Assembly (NCBI GenBank): GCA_964508705.1
Contig: CAZDUS010000001.1
Coordinates: forward strand, 80,799 to 144,798
Direction of reading: 5' to 3'
Origin: an uncultured Verrucomicrobiota bacterium
GTDB lineage: Bacteria > Verrucomicrobiota > Kiritimatiellia > CAIKKV01 > CAITUY01
Length of the DNA: 64,000 nucleotides
This document shows, piece by piece, positions 1,996-55,114 of the stretch. Made by a program: the position numbers and the translations under genes. How positions within the stretch are numbered: position 1 is the stretch's first letter; each line of letters opens with the position of its first letter. Under the pieces are notes generated by a model. That model had not been told where the DNA came from. It searched no databases and saw nothing but the letters and a program-made list of their open reading frames with translations.

Positions 1996-3393
1996 ATGAA
2001 TACACAAGAGCTCAAGAGCCCAATCAACGAAGCCGCCATCGCCTCCACACTGGAATCGGCCGCCCGCTCCGACGCCTCCCTTGTCCGTGACGTCCTCACC
2101 AAAGCCCGCGAACTCAAGGGGCTCTCTCACGCCGACGTCGCCGTCCTCGCCTCCATTAGCGACCCCGACCTCCTGCGCGAATTATTCGCGGCCGCCAATA
2201 AGCTCAAGGAGCAAATCTACGGAAAACGCATCGTCATCTTTGCCCCGCTCTACATTTCAAACCTGTGCGCGAACGACTGCCTCTACTGCGCTTTCAGGTC
2301 GCGCAACACAGAACTTAAACGTCTCGCCCTGTCCCAGGCCGAAATCGCCGAGGAAACCCGTATCCTGATCCGGCAGGGACACAAGCGGGTCCTCCTGGTC
2401 GCCGGCGAATCCTACCCCCGCGAGGGATTTTCCTATGTCCTGAAATCCATCGAAACCGTTTACAGCGTCCGCGAAAACCACGGCGAAATCCGCCGCGTGA
2501 ACGTCAATGTTGCGCCTCTGACCGTCGATGAATTCCGCCAGCTCCACGCCGCAAAAATCGGCACCTATCAACTCTTTCAGGAAACCTATCACCGCGCCAC
2601 CTACGACGCCGTACATGTCACTGGCAGGAAAAAGGACTATCTCTGGCGTATCACCGCGCCGGAACGCGCCATCCAGGCCGGCATCGACGACATCGGTATC
2701 GGCGTCCTATTCGGTTTGGCTGATTGGCGCTTTGAATTGCTGGCCTTGCTTCAGCATTGCCATCATCTTGAATCGAATTTCGGCGTCGGCCCTCACACCA
2801 TTAGCGTTCCCCGCCTCGAACCCGCCTCGGGCTCCGATATCGCGACCCACCCGCCCAAGCCGGTGTCGGATATCGATTTCCGTAAAATTGTCGCCATCCT
2901 GCGCCTCGCCGTCCCCTACACCGGCATCATCATGTCCACCAGGGAAAATCCCAACATCCGGCGCGAGACATTCGCGCTCGGCGTGTCCCAGATTTCAGCC
3001 GGAAGCCGCACCAACCCCGGCGGCTATGGCGATGGCCAAAAGGAAGACTTCAGCCAGTTCTCCCTTGGCGATCACCGATCCCTCGATGAAGTCGTCCGGG
3101 ACGTCGCCCAGCTCGGCCATATTCCATCCTTCTGCACCTCCTGCTACCGGCTCGGTCGCACAGGCGCCGATTTCATGGACCTGGCCAAGCCCGGCGAAAT
3201 TAAATACCACTGCGACCCCAACGCGCTCTCAACCTTCTTGGAATACCTCATCGACTACGCCTCGCCAGAAACCCGGCAGGCGGGCGAGCAACTCATCGCC
3301 GGCACCCTCGCACGCATGAACCCGCTCCAGCGCGCCACATCACAAAGTCTGATGGATGATGTCCGCGCCGGGAAACGAGATGTCTTCTGCTGA
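1996..3393 (+). CDS. hydG: [FeFe]-hydrogenase maturase HydG (radical SAM tyrosine lyase family)
   Basis: 465 aa. It has the radical-SAM motif CANDCLYC and a C-terminal CTSC-(22 residues)-C, i.e. the CX2CX22C motif that separates HydG from ThiH. Confidence 0.85.
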   Translation: MNTQELKSPINEAAIASTLESAARSDASLVRDVLTKARELKGLSHADVAVLASISDPDLLRELFAAANKLKEQIYGKRIVIFAPLYISNLCANDCLYCAFRSRNTELKRLALSQAEIAEETRILIRQGHKRVLLVAGESYPREGFSYVLKSIETVYSVRENHGEIRRVNVNVAPLTVDEFRQLHAAKIGTYQLFQETYHRATYDAVHVTGRKKDYLWRITAPERAIQAGIDDIGIGVLFGLADWRFELLALLQHCHHLESNFGVGPHTISVPRLEPASGSDIATHPPKPVSDIDFRKIVAILRLAVPYTGIIMSTRENPNIRRETFALGVSQISAGSRTNPGGYGDGQKEDFSQFSLGDHRSLDEVVRDVAQLGHIPSFCTSCYRLGRTGADFMDLAKPGEIKYHCDPNALSTFLEYLIDYASPETRQAGEQLIAGTLARMNPLQRATSQSLMDDVRAGKRDVFC

Positions 3394-3400
3394 GTCCACC

Positions 3401-3757
3401 ATGCCAGCTTATCCATTAAAAAAACGCGTGATCTCAACCCTGCCCTCCAAGCTTCAGGACGGCGGAATCCCGTTCTCAAAACTCATCGCGCCTTTCATCA
3501 AGACCCTGCGTCTCGAGGAAACACGAAGCGTTAACCACCTTCAGGAACGATGGGAGTCCACCGTCGGCAAAGCCGTGGCCGCCCATACCAGACCTGGAAT
3601 CCTGAATAACGGTGACCTGACCATTTATGTCGATAGCTCACCGTGGCTCAGCGAGCTCAAGCGATACGCCTCACGGGAACTGCTGGCTAATCTGCAGACG
3701 GCTTTCGGGAAGGATGTCATTCGGACCGTGCGGCTCCAGTTGGACCCCGGGCGCTGA
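3401..3757 (+). CDS. DUF721 (DciA-like) protein
   Basis: WESTVGKAVAAHTRPGILNNGDLTIYVDSSPWLSELKRYASRELLANL matches the DUF721 pattern. The start is taken at ATG 3401, just after the hydG stop at 3391-3393. Confidence 0.7.
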   Translation: MPAYPLKKRVISTLPSKLQDGGIPFSKLIAPFIKTLRLEETRSVNHLQERWESTVGKAVAAHTRPGILNNGDLTIYVDSSPWLSELKRYASRELLANLQTAFGKDVIRTVRLQLDPGR

Positions 3758-3759
3758 CG

Positions 3760-6177
3760 TCAGAATAATTCCGGCAGGACCGACTTGGCCTTTGCGCCAA
3801 GCTCAGGAGCCACGCTAACCGCCTCGTTCGCCAGTTCACTCGCCAGCTTCTTTGAACTCTTGCTACCGGCGCCAGCCTCCAGCACATATGCCGCAGCGCC
3901 CAACAATGGCCGCCCGGCCTCCGGCTTGGCAACCCCTCCCGCACCCTTGTACTCCGTGATAAACCTTATTATCTGCGCCGGCGAAACATCCGTCCAAGGC
4001 ACGGGGCCCCCACGAACCATCACGTTATTCTCGTCCGCCCCCAAGACATCACGGCTGGGGACACCATTCACCAGCCATCCATACCGGAATCCTGATTCCG
4101 GATGCTTCTTGAAATCATTGCGTATCCCTTCAATGATAAAAGCCTTGAGCTCCATCATCATCTGATACCGCTCCACCGCCGCCGCATGCTCAGCCATCCC
4201 TTGTGTGGACTTAATTCCTGTTCCAATAGCCGACATTGCCTCAAAGGCCTGCTTGAATTGGTTTTTCTGCATCAGCGCCGCATTGGATTTCCGAGTCTTC
4301 TGAATCAAAGCCATCTCGGCCGGCGCCTTCTTCTCAATGGCTTCCTGTTGGCGCCGTTTCGCCTCTTCCGCCTTTTGCTTCTTCTCCGCCGCCAACCGCT
4401 CCTTCTCCAGCTTGGCTTTCTCCGCCTTCTGCACCCTGGCCAAGTCCGCAATTCGCTTATCCATCTCCGCAAGCGCTTTCAATGCCGTCTCGCCTCGCGA
4501 AACTTCCGCTTCCAATGCTGCATACTTCGCCTGCGACAAGCCCGGCAGGTTCGTCAACGTCAGCAAAATGGCTTCCGCCTGCGCGGAATTGGTGGATTGA
4601 TATATCGCCTCCCGCCCGATATTCAGCGAATTCGTTACACCCCTCACTTCGGCCAAGGCCTGCGCAACCGACTCCGTGGCCAGTTTTTTCACGTCAGCCA
4701 CCATCGGCGGCACCTTGACCGCCACCTCGTTAATCACAGCCTCATCCAGAAGATTATTGGTCTCGCTTGCCATACTGGCAAACAAGGCCTCTGCCTCCTT
4801 TACCCAGGCCCTGACAAACTCCGTTCGTTTGGCTGACTTGATCATCAGCGTGTAGATATCGCTCCATATCTTGTTGGCCTGCGTCTTGATCTCCTCCAGC
4901 CGGACCGCATCCGTCTGCTCGGCCGTCAATCGCGCTTTATCGGCGTTTGCTTTCTTAACCCACGCCGTCACTCCTCCAATAAGCGACAGGAGCACCACCA
5001 CAGAACTGGCGATTAAAATCAACTTCTTGTGCTTCGTCCAAAGTGTCTGCGAAACAGGTTCCTCATCAAGCGAAATAGGCTCCTCAATAGCGCCCGAAAC
5101 CACAGTCAGCGGCCCTGTCGTCTGCTGTTGCCCTACCGTTATCACCGCCTTTTTCTTCGTCAGGACAATCTTGCCGTCTCGCTTGGAAAGCGCCGCCGGG
5201 GCCGCTTGAACCGGTATTGGCTTCAGCTTCAAGAACACCTTATGCATGTCGCTCAACAAAGATGCATAGGTCGGATAACGTCGCGCAGATTCCTTCTCCA
5301 GCATACGCGCCACAATGGCCGCCACTTCCGGATCCACGTCCGGACGGATCGTTCGCACGTCCGGAGCCGGGGCAGCCAGTCGCGCCTTAACCACGGCGAT
5401 CGGCGTCTCCCCATCAAAAGGAGGCTTCAACGTCAACATGTGGAATAACGTCGCGCCCAGACTGTAAATGTCTGATTTCGCATCGCCCTGATGGCCTCGC
5501 ACCTTTTCCGGCGCAATGTAGTATGGCGTCCCCCATATCCCCTGCGATGTCGCACCCGCCTCGGCCTTCTTCTTGAACTGCGCCAACCCGAAGTCCACCA
5601 CCTTGGCCACCCCGTTACCATCCATCAGGATGTTTTCAGGCTTAACATCACCGTGAACCAACCCAATGCCCGCCGCCGCGCTCAACCCTTCCGCCGTCTC
5701 AAGCACTATCTTGAAGGCCTGGGTCTCATTCATCATTTCACCGAGGGACATCATCTGGTCCACCCGCCCGCCCTCAAGCAACTCCATCACCATGTACGGT
5801 TGCCCATGCTCCATCCCGAATGAGTAAATCTGCACGATGTTGGGATGGTTCAATGCAGCCGCCGCCTTGGCCTCATTCCTGAAAGTCGCCACAAACTCCG
5901 GATTGGACCCGAGTGACTTCAACAAGACCTTCACGGCCACCAATCGCCCAAGGGCGATGTCTTTCCCCCGATAAACCGCGCCCATTCCCCCTTTGCCCAG
6001 CAGTTCAACCAACAGGAATGCGCCTAGCCGCGCCGGCACCAATTGGGGAGTGTGACACGCCGGACAAACAATCTCCTCAAAAGAAGGTATTCCCGCCACA
6101 TCGAAAGCGTGCTGGCAGGAAGAGCATGTCATTTCTGAAACTTGCTCTGTTAATATTTCCGTTTGTTGCGATTCCAT
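3760..6177 (-). CDS. Ser/Thr protein kinase with N-terminal zinc ribbon, one TM helix and a long K/E-rich coiled-coil ectodomain
   Basis: Hanks kinase motifs are present: GKGGMGAVY, VAVK, HGDVKPENIL, DFG, and GTPYYIAPE. The N-terminus has CSSC...CPAC. The TM segment is LILIASSVVVLLSLIGGVTAWV. A lysine/glutamate-rich region follows (AEKAKLEKERLAAEKKQKAEEAKRRQQ). Confidence 0.85.
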   Translation of the reverse strand: MESQQTEILTEQVSEMTCSSCQHAFDVAGIPSFEEIVCPACHTPQLVPARLGAFLLVELLGKGGMGAVYRGKDIALGRLVAVKVLLKSLGSNPEFVATFRNEAKAAAALNHPNIVQIYSFGMEHGQPYMVMELLEGGRVDQMMSLGEMMNETQAFKIVLETAEGLSAAAGIGLVHGDVKPENILMDGNGVAKVVDFGLAQFKKKAEAGATSQGIWGTPYYIAPEKVRGHQGDAKSDIYSLGATLFHMLTLKPPFDGETPIAVVKARLAAPAPDVRTIRPDVDPEVAAIVARMLEKESARRYPTYASLLSDMHKVFLKLKPIPVQAAPAALSKRDGKIVLTKKKAVITVGQQQTTGPLTVVSGAIEEPISLDEEPVSQTLWTKHKKLILIASSVVVLLSLIGGVTAWVKKANADKARLTAEQTDAVRLEEIKTQANKIWSDIYTLMIKSAKRTEFVRAWVKEAEALFASMASETNNLLDEAVINEVAVKVPPMVADVKKLATESVAQALAEVRGVTNSLNIGREAIYQSTNSAQAEAILLTLTNLPGLSQAKYAALEAEVSRGETALKALAEMDKRIADLARVQKAEKAKLEKERLAAEKKQKAEEAKRRQQEAIEKKAPAEMALIQKTRKSNAALMQKNQFKQAFEAMSAIGTGIKSTQGMAEHAAAVERYQMMMELKAFIIEGIRNDFKKHPESGFRYGWLVNGVPSRDVLGADENNVMVRGGPVPWTDVSPAQIIRFITEYKGAGGVAKPEAGRPLLGAAAYVLEAGAGSKSSKKLASELANEAVSVAPELGAKAKSVLPELF

Positions 6178-10295: not shown

Positions 10296-10715
10296 TTATT
10301 GCGCTTTCAACTGCTGGGCGATAAACGCATTCATGGCCGAATGACCCACCAGTAAATCGCGTATCGACACCATTCCAATCACCTTGCCGTGATCCATCAC
10401 TGGGAGATGCCGCACCTTCCGCTCCGTCATAAGCGTCATGCAGTGTTCCGCAGTATCCTCCGTCCTCACGTGCGTCACGCGGTGACTCATGATCTCATCC
10501 ACCAGAGTCGTCGCCGAAGCCTTCCCCTTGAGTATCACTTTGCGAGCATAATCGCGCTCGGTGATAATCCCCGCCAACTTGTCTCCCTCCATCACCAGCA
10601 ACGCACCCACCTGGAACTCATCCATACGCCGGACCGCTTCAAACACCGTGTCACTCTTGGTAATGGTCCGGATCACTGATCCCTTCCGCTCCAGAATGTC
10701 ACGTACCGTCTCCAT
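10296..10715 (-). CDS. CBS-domain pair protein
   Basis: 139 aa containing two CBS repeats (VGALLVMEGDKLAGIITERD and RHLPVMDHGKVIGMVSIRD). Confidence 0.8.
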   Translation of the reverse strand: METVRDILERKGSVIRTITKSDTVFEAVRRMDEFQVGALLVMEGDKLAGIITERDYARKVILKGKASATTLVDEIMSHRVTHVRTEDTAEHCMTLMTERKVRHLPVMDHGKVIGMVSIRDLLVGHSAMNAFIAQQLKAQ

Positions 10716-10772: not shown

Positions 10773-11567
10773 CTACACCGCCAAATTCTCAAGATACTGA
10801 ATCCAAGCGTCCATCCCCTGCCCGGTCTTGGCGCTCAATTCAAAGACAAACACTCCGGGATGAATCTTCCTCAGATATTCACGGCACTTTGCCAGGTTCC
10901 AATCCAGATGTGGCGCCAAATCCATTTTCGTCAGCACCACCACAGGTGCCATCCCGAACAAAGTCGGATACTTCACCGGCTTGTCCTCGCCTTCCGTTGT
11001 CGAAAGCAACGCCACCTTGAACTGCTCGCCCAAATCAAACGCCGCCGGACAAACAAGATTGCCGACATTCTCAATGAACAGCAGCTTGATTCCGCCCTCG
11101 GTGACCTCGGGCAGCAACTGTCCCACGCGTTCGGCATCCAGATGGCAAGCACTGATCGTCTCGATCTGCCGCACCACCGCCCCCTTTCCCGCCAGCCGGC
11201 GCGCGTCATTGTCCGTCTGCTGGTCACCAGTAATCACGGCGCACGCCACCCGCCCTCTCAGCCTCTCCAATGTGCGCTCAAGCAAATAGGTCTTCCCGGA
11301 GCCCGGCGATGAAATCATGTTGATGGCAACCACGCCATGCTTCGCTAGCCACTGGCGGTTCGCCTCCGCCTTGGCATCGTTCTCGGAAAGCACCTTTCGC
11401 TCCAGCGCGATCGTGCGCCGCTCCGTTGCCGAAAGCTCGGCATGACTGTGCTCATGGGTATGGTCCCCGTGATGATGTCCATGACTGTGAACATGCCCAT
11501 CCCCGTGATCATGAAAATAGTGATGCCCGTGCTTTCCAGCTTCCTCGCAACCACAATCTTTACACAT
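10773..11567 (-). CDS. hypB: Hydrogenase nickel-incorporation GTPase HypB
   Basis: I take the start at ATG 11567, which gives MCKDCGCEE, the CXXCGC high-affinity Ni site. A His-rich stretch follows, then the P-loop SSPGSGKT. The tracked ORF extends 13 codons further upstream. Confidence 0.9.
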   Translation of the reverse strand: MCKDCGCEEAGKHGHHYFHDHGDGHVHSHGHHHGDHTHEHSHAELSATERRTIALERKVLSENDAKAEANRQWLAKHGVVAINMISSPGSGKTYLLERTLERLRGRVACAVITGDQQTDNDARRLAGKGAVVRQIETISACHLDAERVGQLLPEVTEGGIKLLFIENVGNLVCPAAFDLGEQFKVALLSTTEGEDKPVKYPTLFGMAPVVVLTKMDLAPHLDWNLAKCREYLRKIHPGVFVFELSAKTGQGMDAWIQYLENLAV

Positions 11568-11605: not shown

Positions 11606-14029
11606 CTACTCAATTTTCTCAAACGGCCACATGGCCATCCCGCCTTCCATCACCCGCACCTGCTTGAACCCCGCCGCCTTGAGGATCAACGCCCCTTCGT
11701 AGGCGCGCAATGCAATGTCGCAGAACAATACCAGCATCTTGTCGCGGGGCAATTCCGATAATCGCTCGCGCAACGCCCCGAGCGGCAACGACAATGAGCG
11801 CGGTAACCTCTGTTGCTCGAACTCGCCCGGCGCCCGGACATCGAGAAAAATGAAATCATCACGGCGCATGAGCTTCTCGTGAACCTCCTGCGGGGAGATC
11901 CCCTCCAGAGTCCCATCCAATTTGTTACGCGCCACATTGGCCGCCGTCATCAGGTTGTCGATGGCCGTCGAGAATGATGGCCCGTAACACAAATCCTCAT
12001 TCGCCAACTCGTCCACTGTGCGCCCCGTCGCTATCGCCAGCGCAGCCACATCCACCCGCTTGTCTCCCGCTCCCGGACCCACCGTCTGGACGCCAAGCAG
12101 TTTCCTGGTCCCGCGATCGACAATCAGCTTCATCATGATCATGCTGGCCGACTGCAGGTAATGCGCCCGGTCCAGTCCCGGCGCTTGCACTGTTACCACA
12201 TCATATCCCGCTTGCCGCGCCTCATCCGCTCCCAAGCCCGTTCGCGCCACCGTGTAGTCAAAAATGCGGCAAATCGAACTCCCCAGCACCCCGGGAAACC
12301 GGTCGGACCCACCGCAAATATTCACCGCCGCCACCCGCCCCTGCTTGGTCGCCGTGGAGCCCAGCGGAATATAACAGGGTTTGCCTGTCAACCGGTGCGT
12401 GCTTTGAGTGCAATCCCCCGCCGCAAAAATATCCGGCTGGTTCGTCCTCAACATTTCGTCGACACGGATGGCGCCTGTCTCACCCAACACAATTCCCGCC
12501 GATTCCGCCAACTCCACATTTGGACGAATGCCGCACGCCAGAATAACCATGTCCGCAGGAAACGTCCCCTTGTCCGTCACCACCGCCTTCACCGCCGCCT
12601 CACCCTCCAATCCCGTCGCCGTCGCGCCCGTCACTATCCGGACCCCATGCGATTCCAAATGACGCTCCACAAGAACCGCCATATCCAGATCCAGGATCGG
12701 AAGAATAAAGGGGAGCCTCTCCACGATCGTCACTCGCGCCCCCTTACGCACCAAAGCCTCTGTCATCTCGATGCCGATCAGGCCACCGCCGACAGTGACA
12801 ACATCCCGGGCCATGGTCTCCGCCATCGCACTGCGCAACCCCTCGGCGTCATGCATGCCGTGCAACGTGTACACCTGCTTAAGCTTCGTCTTCAGGGAAT
12901 CGGGCACATATGCCGACGCCCCTGTGGCAAGCAGTAGTTTGTCGTAGGAGAGCCAGTGCTCATGCCCGCTGAGTAAATCACGAACAAGCACCCTCTTGCC
13001 ATCCGCATCCACTTCACACGCCTTCGTCTGGTTCATCACATGAACATTCATCACGTTGCGGAAGAACACGGGATCGCGAACCACTCCTGCCGGACTGGAT
13101 AGCAATCGTTTTTGATCACGCACCTCACCGGACACGTAATACGGCAACCCGCAACCTGCGTACGAAAGCAAACTCCCCTGTTCGATCACCGTCACATCGG
13201 CATCAGGCATAAGCCGGATAATCTTAGCAGCCGCTTTCGGACCCGCCGTCACCCCGCCAACAATCACCACCTTGGGCCCAGTCACTCGCCGATCATCCGC
13301 TTGCCGTTCCTCCTCCGGTTCCGCCAATACCAACTCAACAAAAAATTCCGCACCTCCCAGCTCCGCGGATTTCCCCACCCCAACTTGACCACCCGCCGCC
13401 TCAACCACGCTTTTCACAAACGCCAGGCCAAGTCCCACCCCCGGCCGCGTGGAATGCCTCACCGTACTTGACCGATAGAATGGACTGAAAATCTTCTCTG
13501 GATCAACATCGGCAACCCCGATCCCCGAATCAGCCACCACGACCCGCACATACGCCTCGTCGGTCACTGGGCAGATCGTGATGCGCACACGCCCTTGATC
13601 CGGCGTGTATTTCAAGGCATTACTCACCAACGCACCCAGCGCCTCCGTCAGCGCCGCTTCGCCCGGTCGCACCCTCACCGGCAACCCTTGCAGATCCAAT
13701 TGCAGGGTAATATCCCGTTGCATCGCCTCGGCCACAAAGCGCGCATGCACACTCCGGATCACGGAATTCAACAGGGCGGGCGGCTCACCCGGCGCCTGCC
13801 CTGCCCCCGTCTGGATAATGGTGAGCATCCGCCTGACAGACTGGATCGCTTGATCACACCGTTCATTCGCCCGCTCCAGGGGCCCCCGGAGCCCCGACGC
13901 CACCGGCCCCGCGTACTCGCCCAAAACACTTTGAAGCGCCGCGCTAACGGCATTCAACGGCGACTGGATCTGATGCGCCAGCAACGAGGCGAACTTGAGC
14001 GGGTCGTCCTGAAAATCCATCTTCTTCAT
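11606..14029 (-). CDS. Fusion protein: histidine-kinase core (DHp+CA) + CoA-disulfide/persulfide-reductase-like flavoprotein + rhodanese domain
   Basis: Single 807-codon ORF. The kinase core has H-box LLAHQIQSPL (His19), N-box VSNALKYTP, DSGIGV, IFSPFYR and GVGLGLAF. The flavoprotein part has KVVIVGGVTAGPKAA, SYAGCGLPYY (Cys293) and GGGLIGIE. The C-terminal rhodanese loop is C770-DIAL-R. Confidence 0.8.
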   Translation of the reverse strand: MKKMDFQDDPLKFASLLAHQIQSPLNAVSAALQSVLGEYAGPVASGLRGPLERANERCDQAIQSVRRMLTIIQTGAGQAPGEPPALLNSVIRSVHARFVAEAMQRDITLQLDLQGLPVRVRPGEAALTEALGALVSNALKYTPDQGRVRITICPVTDEAYVRVVVADSGIGVADVDPEKIFSPFYRSSTVRHSTRPGVGLGLAFVKSVVEAAGGQVGVGKSAELGGAEFFVELVLAEPEEERQADDRRVTGPKVVIVGGVTAGPKAAAKIIRLMPDADVTVIEQGSLLSYAGCGLPYYVSGEVRDQKRLLSSPAGVVRDPVFFRNVMNVHVMNQTKACEVDADGKRVLVRDLLSGHEHWLSYDKLLLATGASAYVPDSLKTKLKQVYTLHGMHDAEGLRSAMAETMARDVVTVGGGLIGIEMTEALVRKGARVTIVERLPFILPILDLDMAVLVERHLESHGVRIVTGATATGLEGEAAVKAVVTDKGTFPADMVILACGIRPNVELAESAGIVLGETGAIRVDEMLRTNQPDIFAAGDCTQSTHRLTGKPCYIPLGSTATKQGRVAAVNICGGSDRFPGVLGSSICRIFDYTVARTGLGADEARQAGYDVVTVQAPGLDRAHYLQSASMIMMKLIVDRGTRKLLGVQTVGPGAGDKRVDVAALAIATGRTVDELANEDLCYGPSFSTAIDNLMTAANVARNKLDGTLEGISPQEVHEKLMRRDDFIFLDVRAPGEFEQQRLPRSLSLPLGALRERLSELPRDKMLVLFCDIALRAYEGALILKAAGFKQVRVMEGGMAMWPFEKIE

Positions 14030-14070: not shown

Positions 14071-14421
14071 TCACTCGGCAACATCTACCTCAATCGAGGT
14101 AATGTACAACTCACGCCCCGACTTGACTTCCACATCGGACGATTTGCATCCCTCGCAATAAATGAACGGTGCCTCCGGTTGCGATATCTTGCCGCAGGCC
14201 CTGCACTGCACCGATGCCTTGATCCACTCAATCACCAGTTCCGCCCCCGCCGCCACCGACTCCTCGGCCGCCAGCGGAAACGCCCCCTTCAACGCCTCCG
14301 GATCGACACCCGAAAGAGCCCCGACCGTCACCGTGACCTTTGGCACGGCCGCAGCCTTCTGCTCCCGAGCCACCTTCTCCATCTGCTCAACCAACGCCAT
14401 CGCTATAGATAATTCATGCAT
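14071..14421 (-). CDS. hypA: Hydrogenase nickel insertion protein HypA
   Basis: It has the N-terminus MHELSIA and the zinc site CRACG...CEGC. The start is at ATG 14421. Confidence 0.9.
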   Translation of the reverse strand: MHELSIAMALVEQMEKVAREQKAAAVPKVTVTVGALSGVDPEALKGAFPLAAEESVAAGAELVIEWIKASVQCRACGKISQPEAPFIYCEGCKSSDVEVKSGRELYITSIEVDVAE

Positions 14422-14437
14422 GAGCAACTCCAAAGTA

Positions 14438-14602
14438 TTCAGAATTCAGTAGTCAGCATCCAGAATCTGTTAAACCATCATCTTGTATTATGTGGATCCA
14501 TCTTCGCACCCAACAACTTGTTCTTCCTCTTAAATCACACGTCTTCGGATCCAGTCCCCATTCTGAATTCTGACTTCTGTCTCCTGACTTCTGTTTCTCT
14601 GC
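14438..14602. repeat. Two mutually inverted 7-nt-periodic arrays in the hypE-hypA spacer
   Basis: 14438-14472 reads TTCAGAA TTCAGTA GTCAGCA TCCAGAA TCTGTTA. 14561-14602 reads TTCTGAA TTCTGAC TTCTGTC TCCTGAC TTCTGTT TCTCTGC. The outer about 11 nt of the two arrays are complementary. Confidence 0.65.
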
Positions 14603-14603
14603 A

Positions 14604-15617
14604 TCAGCAAATCCTCGGCAATAATTCACCCCTCGGCACATCCACCAACCTCTGTCCACCGGCAACCGTCTCCAGAATCACACGCCCGTTCCTGCCGGTC
14701 ACAACACCAACCTCCGTCGCCAACCGACCCTCCGGCAACGCTCTCCAGCAATCAAGGATCACCCCGGCGACTTGTGGATCACACACCAGCACCATGCGCC
14801 CCTCCGATGCCACCTGTAATAAATCCAGCCCAAGCATCTCCGCCACCGCGCGCGCCCCGGCGGAAAACGGCAGACTCTCCTCACGCAACAGCACACCCAC
14901 CGGACGATCTTCCACCAACTCGTTTAACGTCGCCGCCAATCCGCCACGCGTCGGGTCACGCATGAACCGCACATAGCCAGCCACCGATTGCACCGCCTGC
15001 ACCAGTCGATGTACCGGCCCCGTGTCGCTCTGTGGCCCGTTGCTGATGGCAATGGACTTCCGCGCCGCAAGCACAGCCATACCGTGATCACCCAGCGGAC
15101 CACTCACCAAAATCCGGTCACCCTCCCGCACCCCGTCCGCACTCAGGGAGAACCCTTCCATCAACTCACCTATCCCCGACGTGGTCACATACATGCCGTC
15201 GCATTGCCCGCGCGCCACAACCTTGGTGTCCCCCGTGACCACCGTCACCCCGCAATCGTCCGCCGCCCGCTTGATGGAATCCAACACCCGCGTCAACGTC
15301 GCCCTCGGCAATCCCTCCTCAAGAATCAACGACAACGACAGCCACTTGGGCCGCCCGCCGCAAACGGCAATATCATTAACCGTCCCATGCACCGCAAGAT
15401 CACCAATCGTCCCGCCCGGAAACTCAATCGGCTGGACCACATACCCGTCCGTCGTGAACACCAACGCCCGGCCAGCCGGCATCGGTAACGTGGCCGCGTC
15501 CGGAAGCCCGCGCAACGCACCAACACCAAACCGCGACACAATCTCCTCGCGAATCAGGTCCCTCGACAGCAATCCCCCGCCCCCATGCCCGAGTTGTATC
15601 AACGCCTCATCACGCAT
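14604..15617 (-). CDS. hypE: Hydrogenase maturation carbamoyl dehydratase HypE
   Basis: 337 aa with the AIR-synthase-like fold pattern and the diagnostic C-terminal PRIC. Confidence 0.92.
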   Translation of the reverse strand: MRDEALIQLGHGGGGLLSRDLIREEIVSRFGVGALRGLPDAATLPMPAGRALVFTTDGYVVQPIEFPGGTIGDLAVHGTVNDIAVCGGRPKWLSLSLILEEGLPRATLTRVLDSIKRAADDCGVTVVTGDTKVVARGQCDGMYVTTSGIGELMEGFSLSADGVREGDRILVSGPLGDHGMAVLAARKSIAISNGPQSDTGPVHRLVQAVQSVAGYVRFMRDPTRGGLAATLNELVEDRPVGVLLREESLPFSAGARAVAEMLGLDLLQVASEGRMVLVCDPQVAGVILDCWRALPEGRLATEVGVVTGRNGRVILETVAGGQRLVDVPRGELLPRIC

Positions 15618-15629
15618 AACTCTTCCCCT

Positions 15630-16736
15630 TCACGCTTCACGTCTAACGTATTTATAGTACGCCGCACAGGTCCCTTCCGCGCTGACCATGCAGGGGCCCA
15701 CCGGATGATCCGGCGTACATCCGGTCCCAAACAACGCGCAGGCTGGCGGTTTCATCTTCCCCTTCAGCACTTCGCCACAGGAACAAGCCGGATTCTCGTT
15801 CCCGAGCTCCACCGTCATTCCATGCCGCCGCTCCGCGTCATATGCCGCATACTCCGTCTTCAATCCCAGCCCGCTCTGCGGAATCACCCCAATCCCCCGC
15901 CATGCCGCATCCACCGGTTGCAAATAAGTCGCCATGATTTCCTGCGCCTTGCGATTCCCGCCCGGCGTAACCACACGCGCATACTCGTTCGCCACCTCGG
16001 CCACCCCGCGCTGAATCTGCTCCAGGATTCCCTGCATCCCGTAAAGAATATCCAGCGGTTCAAATCCCGCAACCACGCACGGAACCCGGTACTGCTCCGC
16101 GAACGGCAGATAAGCGTCTGCCCCGATAATGGCGCTGACATGCGCCGGACATAAAAACGCATCAATCCGGATCGATGGATCGGACAGCAACGCATGCAAT
16201 GCGGGCGGCACCAACTTGAACGCCGTCAATAAGGACAAATTTTTCAAACTCCGCCGCTCAGCCTGCTCCACCAGGCAAATCACCGGCGCAATCGTCGTCT
16301 CGAATCCAATGGCCAGGAATACAACCTCACGGGTCGGATTCGTCTCGGCAAGCTCAACCGCCCTCATCGGATTGTAGCAAACCTCCACTGTCCCTCCCCG
16401 TGCGCGACATTCCGCCAGCGTGGAGTTGGCTCCCGGAACCGCCAGCATATCCCCAAAGCTCACCACAATCATGCCCTTCTCCGCGAGGGCAATAGCCACA
16501 TCAATATAACTCGCGGGCGTCACGCAAACGGGACACCCAGGCCCACTGATCAATTCCACGTTGGCGGGAAGCACATCTCGAATCCCATACCGGGCAATGG
16601 CCATCGTGTGGGTCCCGCACACCTCCATGACATTTACCCGCCGCCCCGCAGGCTGAAGCCCGGCGGCCAACTCGGCAAGGCGGCTCTGGATCGTGGCGGC
16701 GGCCGCAGGATTTCTAAACCCTTGAATATAATTCAT
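15630..16736 (-). CDS. hypD: Hydrogenase maturation protein HypD
   Basis: 368 aa with the GPGCPVCVTP and GFETT motifs. Confidence 0.92.
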   Translation of the reverse strand: MNYIQGFRNPAAAATIQSRLAELAAGLQPAGRRVNVMEVCGTHTMAIARYGIRDVLPANVELISGPGCPVCVTPASYIDVAIALAEKGMIVVSFGDMLAVPGANSTLAECRARGGTVEVCYNPMRAVELAETNPTREVVFLAIGFETTIAPVICLVEQAERRSLKNLSLLTAFKLVPPALHALLSDPSIRIDAFLCPAHVSAIIGADAYLPFAEQYRVPCVVAGFEPLDILYGMQGILEQIQRGVAEVANEYARVVTPGGNRKAQEIMATYLQPVDAAWRGIGVIPQSGLGLKTEYAAYDAERRHGMTVELGNENPACSCGEVLKGKMKPPACALFGTGCTPDHPVGPCMVSAEGTCAAYYKYVRREA

Positions 16737-16820: not shown

Positions 16821-17846
16821 TCACTCCTCCGGCTTATACGGGCAAAGCAGGTTGCGGTCAAAAAGATGACGAACCAACGTGCAATCCAGCGAATGCCCTG
16901 CTTTATACGACTGCACCGTTCCCACAAATCGACCGGTGTCAATCAGGGCCAACGCCGCCACCAAATCCAGAATCGCCCGATGCCACACAGCCTCAAGCGA
17001 CTTCCCTTCATGGAATATCATCGGCTTGTTGTAATACCGCCACCGTCCGGCAATCAGGATATTCCTGGTCGTATACCCCAGATGGCGCATGTCGGCAAAC
17101 AACTGCCCGATGGTCCTTACAAAGGCCATCTGCGTAAACGAACAATTCGTGCGTGCCAACGCCCCATGCCGCCCCGTCTCCGGCGTCAATCGCATCCGAA
17201 GCCTCTGTTGCCCGATCGCCGTCTTGAAATTCACCGCGCAATCCAAATCCAGCGCCGGGGCCCCTCCGGTACACGGCTTGACCACCAGGAAACTCCCGTT
17301 AGGCCCCATGATCGCCACAGGCTTCCGGACCGTCACATACTGCACCGGGGTTGTCGTCTCACAAATACCGGCGCTTTCAATCGCCTCCACCAAATCCATA
17401 CTGCCGCGGTCAAACAACGGCGGATCACCGGACTCCATCGAGATCTTCACGTTATCCAACCGCATCGCCAACCGCAGGGCAACAATATGCTCCACCATGC
17501 GCACATAATTATGCGGCGACCCACTACACAAAACGATGTTCCTCTGCGTAGTCCAGATGTTGCCAGCAGAAACACGGATCGGCATGGAATCCGGTAAATC
17601 CGTACGGTCCAGCCACCACCCCTCAACCTCCGACGGCTCAAACTTCAACGTCCGCTGGGCCTTGCCGAAAAACGTTCCCGGCCCCGTCACGGAAACCGGC
17701 TTCCGGATCGTCGTCTGGAAACGCCCGGGATTATCGTTCTCCGGAATCCACTCCATATCCACGGGTTGCGCCAGGAATTTATCCATTTCCCTCTGCAATT
17801 CAGACGCATCGCCCTGCAACAATAAACCATACGGTGTTTCAGACAT
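16821..17846 (-). CDS. LpxC-family (UDP-3-O-acyl-GlcNAc deacetylase-like) protein, divergent
   Basis: By-eye alignment to E. coli LpxC. MVEHIVAL aligns with TVEHLNAAL (Glu/His). AVWHRAILDLVAAL aligns with FVRHKMLDAIGDL (His, Asp). SYKAGHSLD aligns with AYKSGHALN. The start is at ATG 17846, preceded by AGGA. Confidence 0.65.
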   Translation of the reverse strand: MSETPYGLLLQGDASELQREMDKFLAQPVDMEWIPENDNPGRFQTTIRKPVSVTGPGTFFGKAQRTLKFEPSEVEGWWLDRTDLPDSMPIRVSAGNIWTTQRNIVLCSGSPHNYVRMVEHIVALRLAMRLDNVKISMESGDPPLFDRGSMDLVEAIESAGICETTTPVQYVTVRKPVAIMGPNGSFLVVKPCTGGAPALDLDCAVNFKTAIGQQRLRMRLTPETGRHGALARTNCSFTQMAFVRTIGQLFADMRHLGYTTRNILIAGRWRYYNKPMIFHEGKSLEAVWHRAILDLVAALALIDTGRFVGTVQSYKAGHSLDCTLVRHLFDRNLLCPYKPEE

Positions 17847-17913
17847 TTCAATCCTCATAAAATAATTTGCCCATAACAACCAAAGCCACCCCGCTAAGTC
17901 AAGCGGTCATGTG

Positions 17914-25110: not shown

Positions 25111-25443
25111 GGCGAGAATAATGCCAAAGCCGCCCCCCAATGAACAAATAAATAAAAGCGCCGTGACCAGATCCGGAACCCTGGGCGCCTTTGGCAACAC
25201 CATCGTCAACGGCCCAAGCCAGAATTGGTCGATTAAGACCGGCGGCGGCGGAATTTCGTCAGTCAAAAGTGGCAACTGGGCTGGCCCGCTCACATGGACA
25301 ATCAAGGAGTCGAAGTGAGGGCGCCGCTTGGCTTCAAATACTTTGGCCACTGCCTCCTCGTTAAATACAGCCACCCCCAGTCCATAAACAGTTTCCGTAG
25401 GGAAAGCCACAATGCCGCTGTTGCGCAAGAGTCCGCCGCCCGC
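25111..25443 (-). pseudogene. Remnant of a Sua5/TsaC (YrdC-domain) gene, truncated at both ends and in frame with the GT2 gene
   Basis: Translation reads AGGGLLRNSGIVAFPTETVYGLGV...FEAKRRPHFDSLIVHV...FWLGPLTMVLPKAPRVPDLVT. This is the central part of a YrdC domain. About 25 N-terminal residues and the C-terminal half are missing. An in-frame stop lies at 25444-25446. Confidence 0.55.
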
Positions 25444-55051: not shown

Positions 55052-55076
55052 TCGCCCGGTCGTGCCTATTTTCCTA

Positions 55077-55114
55077 TTCTGGATTCTGGATTCTGAATTC
55101 TGAATTCTGGATTC
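55077..55114. repeat. Tandem heptamer (TTCTGGA TTCTGGA TTCTGAA TTCTGAA TTCTGGA) between purE and the S41-like gene
   Basis: Five exact-period copies, read directly. The tracked ORF translates this as ESRIQNSESRIQN. Confidence 0.8.

What the first reader, a model, noticed from the sequence alone, without database searches (positions are those of the whole stretch)
11606..14029. Histidine-kinase core fused to a CoA-persulfide-reductase-like flavoprotein and rhodanese, embedded between hypA and hypB
This is one uninterrupted 807-codon ORF.

- **Kinase core (aa 1-235):** It is complete, with H-box His19 in LLAHQIQSPL plus the N, G1, F and G2 boxes. It has no N-terminal sensor or TM segment.
- **Oxidoreductase (from about aa 252):** The same frame continues as a pyridine-nucleotide-disulfide oxidoreductase. 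It carries the CoADR/Nox-type redox cysteine (SYAGCGLPYY, Cys293).
- **Rhodanese (C-terminus):** The CX4R loop is intact (C770DIALR).

The C-terminal two thirds therefore has the CoADR-RHD / NADH-dependent persulfide reductase architecture. It sits where a kinase would normally have nothing, which reverses the usual sensor-then-kinase order. The gene lies in the same orientation 41 nt after hypA and 38 nt before the MCKDCGC start of hypB, and no response regulator is adjacent.

My inference is a kinase whose input is the flavin, thiol or persulfide state (sulfane sulfur, CoA persulfide, NAD(P)H). That would tie [NiFe]-hydrogenase maturation or expression to sulfur redox status. I know of no characterised protein with this layout.
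Basis: partly seen in the sequence, partly recalled or inferred. Interest (0 to 1): 0.75.

Follow-up and report, generated by a model that had tools for sequence, protein, structure and literature searches.

The report
Histidine kinase fused to persulfide reductase
A real, conserved gene fuses a signalling kinase module to a complete sulfur-reducing flavoenzyme; in this organism's clade it sits inside the nickel-hydrogenase assembly operon, suggesting an uncharacterised link between sulfur/NADH redox state and hydrogen metabolism.

Summary
It lies 41 nt after hypA and 38 nt before hypB.

It is not a one-off or an assembly artefact. At least 170 non-redundant full-length relatives exist across Planctomycetota (including Kuenenia), Verrucomicrobiota, Lentisphaerota, Thermodesulfobacteriota and Hydrogenedentota. 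All are annotated only as 'FAD-dependent oxidoreductase', and I found no paper on the fusion.

The hypA-X-hypB embedding is conserved only in the window's own clade (>=67% identity). Other lineages link the gene independently to NAD-coupled [NiFe]-hydrogenase operons ending in a CheY-like receiver, to hypCD (Kuenenia), or to an overlapping receiver gene (Brocadiia).

Two caveats:
- The H-box is invariantly His-Gln rather than His-Glu/Asp. That substitution abolishes autokinase in studied HisKA kinases, yet all ATP-binding boxes here are invariant.
- The rhodanese Cys is lost in about 15% of members.

Best reading: an enzyme-state (NADH/sulfane-sulfur) responsive two-component transmitter wired to hydrogenase biology. 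This is a new variant of a known kind, with moderate-to-high interest.

The parts
11606..14029 (-). Whole fusion gene, 807 codons: HK core - linker - Npsr-like flavoprotein - rhodanese
   Evidence: ORF; domains; >=170 full-length relatives
13808..14002 (-). DHp helical hairpin (aa 10-74) with H-box A-H19-Q20-I-Q-S23-P24
   Evidence: AF2 helices 10-36 and 45-74. Aligns to the DHp of solved HKs. H19 and Q20 are invariant in 171/171.
13973..13975 (-). His19 codon (CAT), the predicted phospho-acceptor
   Evidence: Sequence read; invariant
13325..13780 (-). CA (HATPase_c) domain, aa 84-235, with N box (N137), G1 (D167-S-G-I-G171), F box (F181, F184) and G2 (G197-V-G-L-G-L)
   Evidence: Pfam E 7e-20; all boxes invariant or nearly so in 178-184 sequences
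13274..13324 (-). Inter-module linker, aa 236-252: non-conserved, variable in length, predicted disordered
   Evidence: Alignment A1; pLDDT below 50 for residues 241-249
11915..13273 (-). CoADR/Npsr-type pyridine-nucleotide-disulfide oxidoreductase, aa 253-705 (FAD and NADH Rossmann folds plus dimerisation domain)
   Evidence: Pfam; TIGR03385 at 381 bits; 6pfz, 8a56, 3icr, 3nta
13151..13153 (-). Cys293 codon, the redox-active Cys (equivalent to AfNpsr Cys42) in SYAGCGLPYY
   Evidence: Aligned to 6pfz Cys42 (PMC7969121); 199/199 conserved
11627..11893 (-). Rhodanese domain, aa 713-801
   Evidence: Pfam E 2e-13; superposes with the 6pfz rhodanese domain
11720..11722 (-). Cys770 codon, the rhodanese active-site Cys (equivalent to AfNpsr Cys519) in C-D-I-A-L-R
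   Evidence: Sequence read; aligned to 6pfz Cys519; conserved in 168/197 only
14071..14421 (-). hypA (116 aa, MHELSI... start), immediately upstream
   Evidence: Pfam HypA E 8e-33 and TIGR00100 above cut-off
10773..11567 (-). hypB (264 aa, MCKDCGC start, His-rich N-terminus), immediately downstream
   Evidence: TIGR00073 at 256 bits, above its cut-off of 121
14604..16736 (-). hypD (15630-16736) and hypE (14604-15617), upstream in the same orientation
   Evidence: Pfam HypD E 3e-142; AIRS and AIRS_C; the same order occurs in L081-L084
10296..10715 (-). CBS-pair protein (139 aa), the last gene of the cluster. It is also present after hypB in L003, L081 and L083, and directly after the fusion gene in L026.
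   Evidence: Pfam CBS E 6e-23

Best explanation
The gene encodes a soluble protein that is probably homodimeric. It belongs to a widespread, uncharacterised family.

Anatomy:
- The N-terminus is a sensor-less HisKA-type transmitter (DHp + CA) with a non-canonical His-Gln H-box.
- A disordered linker of about 17 residues tethers it to the C-terminal part.
- The C-terminal part is a complete NADH-dependent persulfide/polysulfide reductase of the Npsr/CoADR-RHD type that looks catalytically competent.

Most likely mechanism:
- The flavoenzyme is the input module.
- Its redox or turnover state reflects the balance between NADH supply and sulfane-sulfur or other thiol-oxidant acceptors, through FAD and the Cys293-CoA centre.
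- That state is read out by docking onto the transmitter rather than through a helical linker.
- The transmitter then sets the phosphorylation state of a stand-alone CheY-like receiver.

Wiring:
- In several lineages the circuit is connected to an NAD-coupled [NiFe]-hydrogenase.
- In the window's clade the gene has become a fixed member of the hyp operon, between hypA and hypB, so it is made together with the nickel-insertion proteins.

Shown: the ORF, the domains, residue conservation and gene contexts.
Inferred: cofactor binding, enzyme activity, direction of signalling (kinase or phosphatase), identity of the partner receiver, and the regulated output.
For: **Both modules are under purifying selection.**
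- In 199 non-redundant members, H19 is 171/171 and N137 178/178.
- The G1 and G2 glycines are conserved in at least 180/182.
- C293, C540 and the NADH-type E437 are each 199/199.

**The enzyme part is a genuine Npsr fold.** 6pfz matches at TM 0.95 (normalised to the target), rmsd 2.2 A and 43% identity. Both catalytic cysteines align.

**The kinase part is a genuine DHp+CA core.** It aligns end to end with solved structures, and the AF2 model is confident.

**The fusion is old and widespread.** It occurs across at least six phyla.

**Receiver linkage.**
- A catalytically complete single-domain receiver of one family lies in 14/64 fused loci and 0/16 unfused loci (Fisher one-sided p = 0.03).
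- In three Brocadiia loci the receiver gene overlaps the fusion gene's start.

**Hydrogenase linkage arises in several independent forms.**
- hyp(F,C)D-E-A-X-B is conserved in a monophyletic clade down to 67% identity. Overlaps are often 4 nt, and the outer flanks are unrelated.
- HoxF/U/Y/H-protease-CheY operons sit next to the gene in three different arrangements, on at least four tree branches.
- Kuenenia has X-hypC-hypD.

**Operon signals in the window.** No terminator-like site falls in the 41-nt and 38-nt gaps.
Against: - **H-box.** The residue after the phospho-His is Gln in 171/171 members. E-to-Q, A, G or D there abolishes autokinase while sparing phosphatase in CrdS. E-to-A does the same in HK853, HK4262 and HK1190 (PMC3510030). 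H+4 is Ser (82%) rather than the Thr/Asn needed for phosphatase.
- **Linker.** It is disordered and non-conserved, so no known HK signalling path applies.
- **No partner or output in the window.** There is no receiver in the window or in the hyp-embedded relatives. There are also no hydrogenase structural genes in the window.
- **Most family members have no hydrogenase link.** Most loci carry no hydrogenase or hyp gene within about 9 kb. One unfused homologue (L070) is also near Hox genes, and 7/64 against 1/16 is not significantly different.
- **Rhodanese Cys.** It is lost in 29/197 members, including the whole Brocadiia clade.
Confidence: 0.45

Rival explanations
1. The protein is primarily a metabolic enzyme. 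It would be an NADH:persulfide/polysulfide reductase working alongside NAD-coupled hydrogenase, with electrons flowing H2 -> NADH -> sulfane sulfur or the reverse valve. Co-location with hox and hyp genes would then reflect metabolic coupling. The kinase module would only tune or report on the enzyme itself, for example by ATP- or phospho-dependent control of activity, and would not drive a regulon.
For: - The catalytic machinery is fully conserved, and the closest structures are active enzymes.
- Unfused proteins at 60-62% identity nest among the fused ones.
- An unfused homologue (L070) also lies 3 kb from HoxU/HoxY.
- Hydrogenase linkage is not significantly more frequent in fused than in unfused loci.
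Against: - His19 and every ATP-binding box are invariant over at least six phyla, which argues for genuine phosphoryl chemistry.
- Receiver genes accompany fused loci but not unfused ones (14/64 against 0/16), and three overlap the gene start.
Confidence: 0.25
2. The transmitter is naturally kinase-negative and phosphatase-positive. It would act as a redox-gated phosphatase or phospho-sink for a receiver that another kinase phosphorylates, rather than as the primary kinase.
For: - The invariant His-Gln H-box mimics the engineered K-/P+ alleles CrdS E372Q and NtrB E140Q (PMC3510030).
- Gln at H+1 is almost confined to this family: 10 of the 13 cases among the 145 nearest representatives with an aligned His.
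- Some relatives sit beside other kinases. L086 is followed by a PAS kinase, a LuxR-type regulator and a hybrid kinase. The window has a hybrid kinase 17.6 kb away.
Against: - H+4 is Ser, Gly or Ala rather than Thr/Asn, so the canonical phosphatase determinant is also atypical.
- Strict conservation of the Mg-ATP ligands (N137, K140, G1, G2) is more than a phosphatase would obviously need.
- From memory only (not verified here; one search found nothing): some active HisKA kinases such as PhoQ lack the acidic residue.
Confidence: 0.17
3. The protein takes a direct part in [NiFe]-cofactor maturation chemistry. It might keep HypA, HypB or HypE cysteines free of persulfide or disulfide, or handle cyanide/thiocyanate through the rhodanese domain. 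The kinase-like module would then serve as an ATPase or dimerisation device.
For: - The position between hypA and hypB is fixed, with translational-coupling-type overlaps, through a whole clade.
- Kuenenia places the gene directly before hypC-hypD.
Against: - Most family members are nowhere near hyp genes.
- There is no homology to any Hyp protein.
- The conserved phospho-His and the receiver neighbours point to signalling.
- Canonical Hyp systems need no such factor (established knowledge of HypA-F).
Confidence: 0.08
4. The ORF is an artefact: a chimeric assembly, or a lost stop or frameshift that joins two separate genes.
For: - A few database entries look split or truncated: P0121 is a 239-aa core followed 52 nt later by another gene.
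- L050 and L057 show frame breaks.
Against: More than 120 independent clusters of 803-839 aa, from different samples, pipelines and phyla, share the same contiguous architecture. Composition is uniform across the junction.
Confidence: 0.01

Closest known systems
NADH-dependent persulfide reductase (Npsr) / CoADR-RHD: A. fulgidus 6PFZ, Shewanella loihica 3NTA, B. anthracis 3ICR, E. faecalis CoAPR 8A56
   Same: - Residues 253-807 share the full fold (TM 0.95 to 6pfz, 43% identity).
- The single redox Cys next to FAD is present (C293, equivalent to Cys42).
- The C-terminal rhodanese has its Cys (C770, equivalent to Cys519).
- The acidic NADH-type residue (E437) is present.
- The segment aligning to the AfNpsr loop 60-66 that closes over CoA is present.

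   Different: - It carries a 250-residue histidine-kinase core at the N-terminus, which no characterised Npsr or CoADR has.
- It scores below the NCBIfam CoA-disulfide-reductase equivalog cut-off (381 against 579 bits).
- The rhodanese Cys is dispensable in 15% of the fused family.
- Enzyme activity is untested.
Class-I HisKA sensor histidine kinases (HK853, WalK/VicK, CpxA, EnvZ)
   Same: DHp hairpin with a phospho-acceptor His followed by xxxSP; a CA domain with N, G1, F and G2 boxes; end-to-end alignment to the solved cores.
   Different: - There is no N-terminal sensor, TM, HAMP or PAS domain; the only candidate input domain is C-terminal and attached by a floppy linker.
- The H-box is His-Gln instead of His-Glu/Asp, and H+4 is Ser instead of Thr/Asn.
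- Pfam HisKA scores below threshold.
H2-sensing HoxBC-HoxJ-HoxA (Cupriavidus necator) / HupUV-HupT-HupR
   Same: A soluble histidine kinase takes its input from a redox enzyme rather than a ligand-binding domain, and controls hydrogenase genes (PMC10073562). Both are examples of 'protein-activity sensing' (PMC6978683, listed).
   Different: - There the sensor enzyme is a separate regulatory [NiFe]-hydrogenase that forms a complex with a separate kinase (PMC10073562); from memory, that kinase carries a PAS domain.
- The regulator there (HoxA) is a transcriptional activator, of the NtrC type from memory.
- Here the enzyme is a flavoprotein persulfide reductase fused in cis, and the likely partner is a CheY-like single domain.
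- No regulatory-hydrogenase genes are nearby.
SurR sulfur-responsive switch of Thermococcales
   Same: Physiological logic: availability of S0 or polysulfide reprogrammes cells between H2 production (hydrogenases) and sulfur reduction. A CoADR-family NAD(P)H sulfur reductase belongs to that regulon (PMC3341082 and PMC12162507, listed; details from established knowledge).
   Different: SurR is a DNA-binding redox switch using a CxxC motif, not a two-component protein. There is no homology and it belongs to a different domain of life. The analogy is functional and hypothetical.
Flavin-based redox sensor kinases and regulators (NifL, MmoS, FixL-type PAS kinases)
   Same: Flavin or cofactor redox state is used as the input to a histidine-kinase-type transmitter (established knowledge).
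   Different: Those proteins use small N-terminal PAS-FAD or haem modules joined to the DHp by a helix. Here the input is a complete two-dinucleotide-binding-domain enzyme plus rhodanese, placed C-terminal to the CA domain.

Membership tests
HisKA-type (class I) histidine kinase | DHp helical hairpin carrying a conserved phospho-acceptor His | tested here: met
   H19 is invariant in 171/171. AF2 gives helices 10-36 and 45-74. H19 aligns to the His of SHELRTPL in 5c93, 4u7n and 2c2a. Pfam HisKA itself is only sub-threshold.
HisKA-type (class I) histidine kinase | Acidic residue (E/D) immediately after the His, required for autokinase | tested here: not met
   Gln in 171/171 members, whereas E/D occurs in 130/145 nearest relatives. 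The functional requirement is documented in PMC3510030.
HisKA-type (class I) histidine kinase | Thr/Asn at H+4, required for phosphatase activity | tested here: inconclusive
   Ser in 141/171; Gly 10, Ala 9, Thr 6. Ser was not tested in PMC3510030.
HisKA-type (class I) histidine kinase | CA domain with N, G1, F and G2 nucleotide-binding boxes | tested here: met
   HATPase_c E 7e-20. N137, D167xGxG171, F181/F184 and G197xGxG201 are invariant or nearly so.
HisKA-type (class I) histidine kinase | Cognate receiver (response regulator) partner | tested here: inconclusive
   None in the window or in the hyp-embedded relatives. One family of CheY-like receivers lies in 14/64 fused loci, and three overlap the gene start.
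HisKA-type (class I) histidine kinase | ATP-dependent autophosphorylation and phosphotransfer | not testable with these tools
   Needs biochemistry.
Npsr / CoADR-RHD (NADH-dependent persulfide reductase) | Two-dinucleotide-binding-domain PNDOR fold with a dimerisation domain | tested here: met
   Pyr_redox_2, Pyr_redox and Pyr_redox_dim. Foldseek to 6pfz gives TM 0.95 (normalised to the target) and rmsd 2.2 A.
Npsr / CoADR-RHD (NADH-dependent persulfide reductase) | Single redox-active Cys adjacent to FAD (AfNpsr Cys42 / SlNpsr Cys43) | tested here: met
   C293 aligns to Cys42 and is conserved in 199/199.
Npsr / CoADR-RHD (NADH-dependent persulfide reductase) | C-terminal rhodanese domain with a surface sulfur-accepting Cys (AfNpsr Cys519 / SlNpsr Cys531) | tested here: met
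   Rhodanese E 2e-13. C770 aligns to Cys519. Family-wide the Cys is present in only 168/197.
Npsr / CoADR-RHD (NADH-dependent persulfide reductase) | Tightly bound CoA; NADH-dependent persulfide/polysulfide reduction | not testable with these tools
   CoA-contact residues were not examined individually. Activity needs biochemistry.
CoA-disulfide reductase equivalog (NCBIfam TIGR03385 / NF007123) | Score at or above the curated equivalog cut-off | tested here: not met
   381 bits against a cut-off of 578.8, and 356.5 against 458.
Hyp [NiFe]-hydrogenase maturation system | Homology to a known Hyp protein (HypA-F) | tested here: not met
   No Hyp family hit. The neighbours are HypA, B, D and E.
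Hyp [NiFe]-hydrogenase maturation system | Conserved operon membership | tested here: inconclusive
   Conserved in the clade at >=67% identity (WIN, L003, L081-L084). Absent in L085-L087 and in most of L001-L080. Kuenenia has X-hypCD.
HoxJ/HupT H2-sensing kinase system | PAS-containing kinase partnered with a regulatory hydrogenase (HoxBC/HupUV) | tested here: not met
   No PAS domain. There are no hydrogenase structural genes in the window. In relatives the neighbouring hydrogenase has a Hox-type diaphorase module and is not a regulatory hydrogenase.

The most novel reading that the evidence does not exclude
The family is an 'enzyme-activity sensor'. A working persulfide/polysulfide reductase would report its own flux (NADH in, sulfane sulfur out) through a fused, mechanistically atypical His-Gln transmitter to a CheY-like protein. 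That protein would act post-translationally on NAD-coupled [NiFe]-hydrogenase or its Ni-insertion machinery. This would be a bacterial counterpart of the archaeal S0-versus-H2 switch, built from two-component parts and, in one clade, hard-wired into the hyp operon.
Probability: 0.2. Interest if true: 0.8.

Novelty: new variant of a known kind. Interest (0 to 1): 0.6.

Why it matters
Three reasons it would matter if the signalling reading holds:

1. It would add a new input class to two-component signalling. The input would be a whole catalytic flavoenzyme placed after the kinase core, with a non-helical coupling mechanism and an H-box that breaks the His-Glu/Asp rule.
2. It would give a candidate regulator connecting sulfane-sulfur/NADH redox state to [NiFe]-hydrogenase synthesis in anaerobic PVC-group bacteria, anammox bacteria and relatives. 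Control of hydrogen metabolism in these organisms is essentially unknown.
3. The family is common in environmental genomes yet annotated only as 'FAD-dependent oxidoreductase'. A functional assignment would therefore improve the annotation of hundreds of species.

Tried and rejected
- **Artefact or chimera:** rejected. More than 120 independent full-length clusters share the architecture.
- **Universal hyp linkage:** rejected. tblastn of the window's HypA, B, D and E against 80 species-level loci found hyp genes only in L003 and L036.
- **One universally conserved neighbour:** none found. De novo ORF calling with blastp clustering showed only partial recurrences.
- **A separate kinase gene next to unfused homologues (Rosetta-stone split):** none within about 9 kb in 16 loci. 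The single possible split form, P0121, could not be verified because no DNA was available.
- **Close free-standing relatives of the kinase module with other sensors:** none. Beyond the family there are only generic HKs at 25-33% identity. Other N-terminal HK cores turned out to be tandem or hybrid kinases.
- **Promoter and terminator scan:** counts were at shuffle level and uninformative, apart from the absence of terminators in the two short gaps.
- **Rfam scan of the cluster:** no hits.
- **Literature searches for the fusion:** nothing relevant.
- **Attempt to document PhoQ's non-acidic H+1 by text search:** found nothing, so that point rests on memory only.
- **Taxon names for the hyp-embedded clade:** the sources give none. 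The only label is 'uncultured Verrucomicrobiota' for L003.
- **Fused versus unfused difference in hydrogenase linkage:** not significant (7/64 against 1/16).


Full report
**Observation.**
- The window carries an uninterrupted 807-codon ORF at 11606-14029 on the minus strand. Base composition is uniform across it.
- Pfam places HATPase_c at aa 125-235, Pyr_redox_2/Pyr_redox/Pyr_redox_dim at 253-692, and Rhodanese at 713-801. All are well above threshold. HisKA at aa 12-72 is only sub-threshold.
- NCBIfam's best models for the C-terminal part are CoA-disulfide reductases, but below their equivalog cut-offs.
- The flanking genes, all on the same strand, are hypD, hypE and hypA upstream, then hypB and a CBS-pair protein downstream.
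- Reading the DNA confirms a 41-nt gap after hypA with a GGGGAG ribosome-binding site, and a 38-nt gap before the hypB ATG (MCKDCGC). It also confirms the His19, Cys293 and Cys770-x4-Arg775 codons.

**The two modules.**
- Residues 254-801 match the A. fulgidus NADH-dependent persulfide reductase 6PFZ at 477 bits. Close behind are E. faecalis CoA-persulfide reductase, B. anthracis CoADR-RHD and Shewanella Npsr.
- An AlphaFold2 model built on a 37-sequence alignment has mean pLDDT 83.7. It superposes on 6PFZ with TM 0.95 (normalised to the target), rmsd 2.2 A and 43% identity.
- The published AfNpsr active-site Cys42 and rhodanese Cys519 (PMC7969121) align with Cys293 and Cys770.
- Residues 6-242 align end to end with solved DHp+CA cores (WalK-type 5c93/4u7n, HK853, CpxA), with His19 on their phospho-His.
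- The model shows a helical hairpin (10-36, 45-74), an alpha/beta CA domain (84-235), and a linker with pLDDT below 50 (241-249).
- The linker is also the least conserved and most length-variable stretch of the alignment.

**Not an artefact, and a large family.**
- A search of about 5.8 billion clustered proteins returned at least 120 clusters of 803-839 aa. They share the same domain set at 53-83% identity and are named at most 'FAD-dependent oxidoreductase'.
- A scan of one genome per species found more than 556 relatives.
- Among the best 80 loci, 64 are fused. They come from Victivallales/Lentisphaerae, Verrucomicrobiota, Phycisphaerae/Sedimentisphaerales, Pirellulales, Planctomycetaceae and Brocadiia (including Kuenenia stuttgartiensis). 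Others come from Thermodesulfobacteriota, Hydrogenedentota, Anaerolineales and Fibrobacteraceae.
- The other 16 loci are unfused CoADR-RHD proteins at 60-62% identity.
- In a neighbour-joining tree of the reductase part, the unfused proteins nest among the fused ones.

**Residue conservation (199 non-redundant members).**

| Residue | Role | Conserved |
|---|---|---|
| His19 | phospho-acceptor | 171/171 |
| Gln20 | H+1 | 171/171 |
| Asn137 | N box | 178/178 |
| G1 and G2 glycines | ATP binding | at least 180/182 |
| Cys293 | redox Cys | 199/199 |
| Cys540 | conserved Cys in the AAGDC motif | 199/199 |
| Glu437 | NADH-type acidic residue | 199/199 |
| Cys770 | rhodanese Cys | 168/197 |

- Cys770 is replaced by Ser throughout the Brocadiia clade and by Gly in a Phycisphaerae/Pirellulales clade.
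- So the flavin/Cys-CoA centre and the phosphoryl-transfer machinery are under strict selection. The rhodanese sulfur-acceptor is not.

**An unexpected H-box.**
- The family motif is H-Q-[LMI]-[QKR]-S-P.
- Among the 145 nearest kinase representatives with an aligned His, drawn from 1.84 billion proteins, 130 have Glu or Asp after the His. Only 13 have Gln, and 10 of those belong to this family.
- Willett and Kirby (PMC3510030) studied this position. In CrdS, E372A, D, G and Q all lose autokinase but keep phosphatase. HK853 E261A, HK4262 E464A and HK1190 E214A behave the same way. NtrB E140Q gives a kinase-negative, phosphatase-positive phenotype. The Thr/Asn at H+4 is the phosphatase determinant.
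- The family therefore departs from the canonical kinase rule at H+1, and partly from the phosphatase rule at H+4 (Ser). Yet every ATP-binding box is conserved.
- Whether the module is a kinase with an alternative catalytic base or a phosphatase/phospho-sink cannot be decided computationally.

**Genomic context.**
- The hypA-X-hypB placement is not a family property. tblastn with the window's Hyp proteins found hyp genes in only two of the 80 loci: L003 (83% identical, hypB+CBS downstream) and L036.
- It is conserved in the window's own clade. Contigs carrying proteins at 74, 69, 67 and 67% identity show hyp(F-C-)D-E-A-X-B. The gene boundaries often overlap by 4 nt, and the outer flanks are unrelated to one another. 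The clade is monophyletic.
- At 62% identity or less the embedding is gone.
- Clustering of neighbours revealed two partial recurrences.
  - The first is a single-domain receiver of one family with all catalytic residues (DD, Asp, Ser/Thr, Lys-Pro). It lies in 14/64 fused loci and 0/16 unfused loci (p = 0.03). In three Brocadiia loci it overlaps the fusion gene's start.
  - The second is a group-3 [NiFe]-hydrogenase operon: a HoxE/F-like NADH module, HoxU, small and large subunits, maturation protease, then the CheY-like receiver. It sits next to the gene in five loci on at least four branches of the tree. Three arrangements occur: convergent in L004, L046 and L061; convergent with an intervening gene in L037; divergent in L021.
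- In Kuenenia the gene is followed directly by hypC-hypD.
- In all, 7/64 species-level fused loci carry hydrogenase or hyp genes, although only 25 of them have at least 5 kb on both sides.
- Against an assumed background of about 1.7% this is unlikely by chance (P of about 1e-4). That background is my assumption, not a measurement.
- One unfused homologue (L070) also lies near HoxU/HoxY, so the link may belong to the reductase as much as to the kinase.

**Mechanism.**
- The best-supported reading is a two-component transmitter whose input is the state of its own fused enzyme.
- NADH reduces FAD and the Cys293-CoA centre, and sulfane-sulfur or other thiol oxidants re-oxidise it.
- The linker is floppy, so the state must be conveyed by docking of the reductase/rhodanese body on the DHp or CA.
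- The output is the phosphorylation level of a CheY-like receiver that several lineages encode at the end of their NAD-coupled hydrogenase operon.
- The physiological logic parallels the archaeal S0-versus-H2 switch (PMC3341082 and PMC12162507). It also parallels the enzyme-as-sensor design of HoxBC-HoxJ-HoxA (PMC10073562).
- Rivals are: a mainly metabolic enzyme with a self-regulating kinase module; a natural kinase-negative phosphatase; and a direct role in maturation chemistry. Assembly artefact is excluded.

**Comparison and novelty.**
- The C-terminal part qualifies structurally as an Npsr/CoADR-RHD.
- The N-terminal part is a class-I HK core that fails one defining motif.
- Among the 150 nearest kinase representatives, other kinase-first proteins are tandem or hybrid kinases and never enzyme fusions.
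- No solved structure spans both modules, and no paper in the held library describes the fusion.
- I rate it a new variant of a known kind: a two-component kinase with a new, C-terminal, enzymatic input and an atypical H-box. It is not categorically new.

**Verdict.** Interest is 0.6. The family is real, widespread, uncharacterised and repeatedly tied to hydrogenase genes. However, the signalling direction, the partner and the output are all inferred, and novel sensor domains on histidine kinases are common.

Noticed in passing
window 14434-14592 (and 55076-55109): The hypE-hypA spacer is 170 nt here but 0-7 nt in relatives. A 33-nt imperfect inverted repeat made of ATTCTGA-like heptamers brackets it. 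The same heptamer tandem recurs at 55076-55109, where 0 matches are expected by chance. The spacer RNA folds to -47 kcal/mol with z = -3.4. There is no Rfam match. It may be a small inserted repeat element or a regulatory hairpin upstream of hypA-X-hypB.
   Followed up: partly
window 1996-3393 (+): This gene is HydG, the radical-SAM maturase of [FeFe]-hydrogenase (TIGR03955, 530 bits against a cut-off of 312). The organism therefore matures both [FeFe] and [NiFe] hydrogenases. No hydrogenase structural gene lies in the window.
   Followed up: partly
window 10296-10715 (-); L026 11495-11857: A small CBS-pair protein closes the hyp cluster here and in L003, L081 and L083. In L026 a homologue (37% identity) directly follows the fusion gene, with no hyp genes present. 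It may be a nucleotide-binding partner of the fusion protein.
   Followed up: partly
window 31607-34027 (+): An 806-aa PAS-HisKA-HATPase_c-receiver hybrid kinase lies 17.6 kb away. It is the only receiver domain I found among the window ORFs scanned, and it could share a phosphorelay with the fusion protein.
   Followed up: no
window 16821-17879 (-) and 15630-16736: hypC and hypF are missing from the window's hyp cluster. An LpxC-like deacetylase homologue sits where hypC precedes hypD in L084 (hypF-hypC-hypD-E-A-X-B).
   Followed up: no
window 23044-25428 (-): A 794-aa ORF combines an N-terminal Sua5/YciO/YrdC domain with a family-2 glycosyltransferase. This is an unusual pairing. It is not HypF, although HypF also contains a YrdC-like domain.
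   Followed up: no
window 3760-6177 (-); L083 1-2197: A large eukaryotic-type Ser/Thr protein kinase gene (805 aa) lies in the window. A similar Pkinase gene lies upstream of the hyp cluster in relative L083.
   Followed up: no
L017 4720-7278: In a deltaproteobacterial relative, the CheY-like receiver follows a molybdopterin oxidoreductase instead of a hydrogenase. My ORF calls split that oxidoreductase into 136-aa and 539-aa pieces. It may be a selenocysteine-containing formate-dehydrogenase-type enzyme.
   Followed up: no
P0121 (JGI 3300075153 contig, genes at 1816-2535 and 2587-3876): A 239-aa stand-alone His-Gln kinase core (56% identical to the window's module) is followed 52 nt later by an unannotated gene on the same strand. 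It may be a naturally split form of the fusion. No DNA was available to check.
   Followed up: partly
L086 10428-15695: In one relative the fusion gene is followed 7 nt later by a multi-PAS kinase, then a LuxR-type response regulator, then a receiver-HK-receiver hybrid. This suggests the family can be embedded in multi-kinase networks.
   Followed up: no
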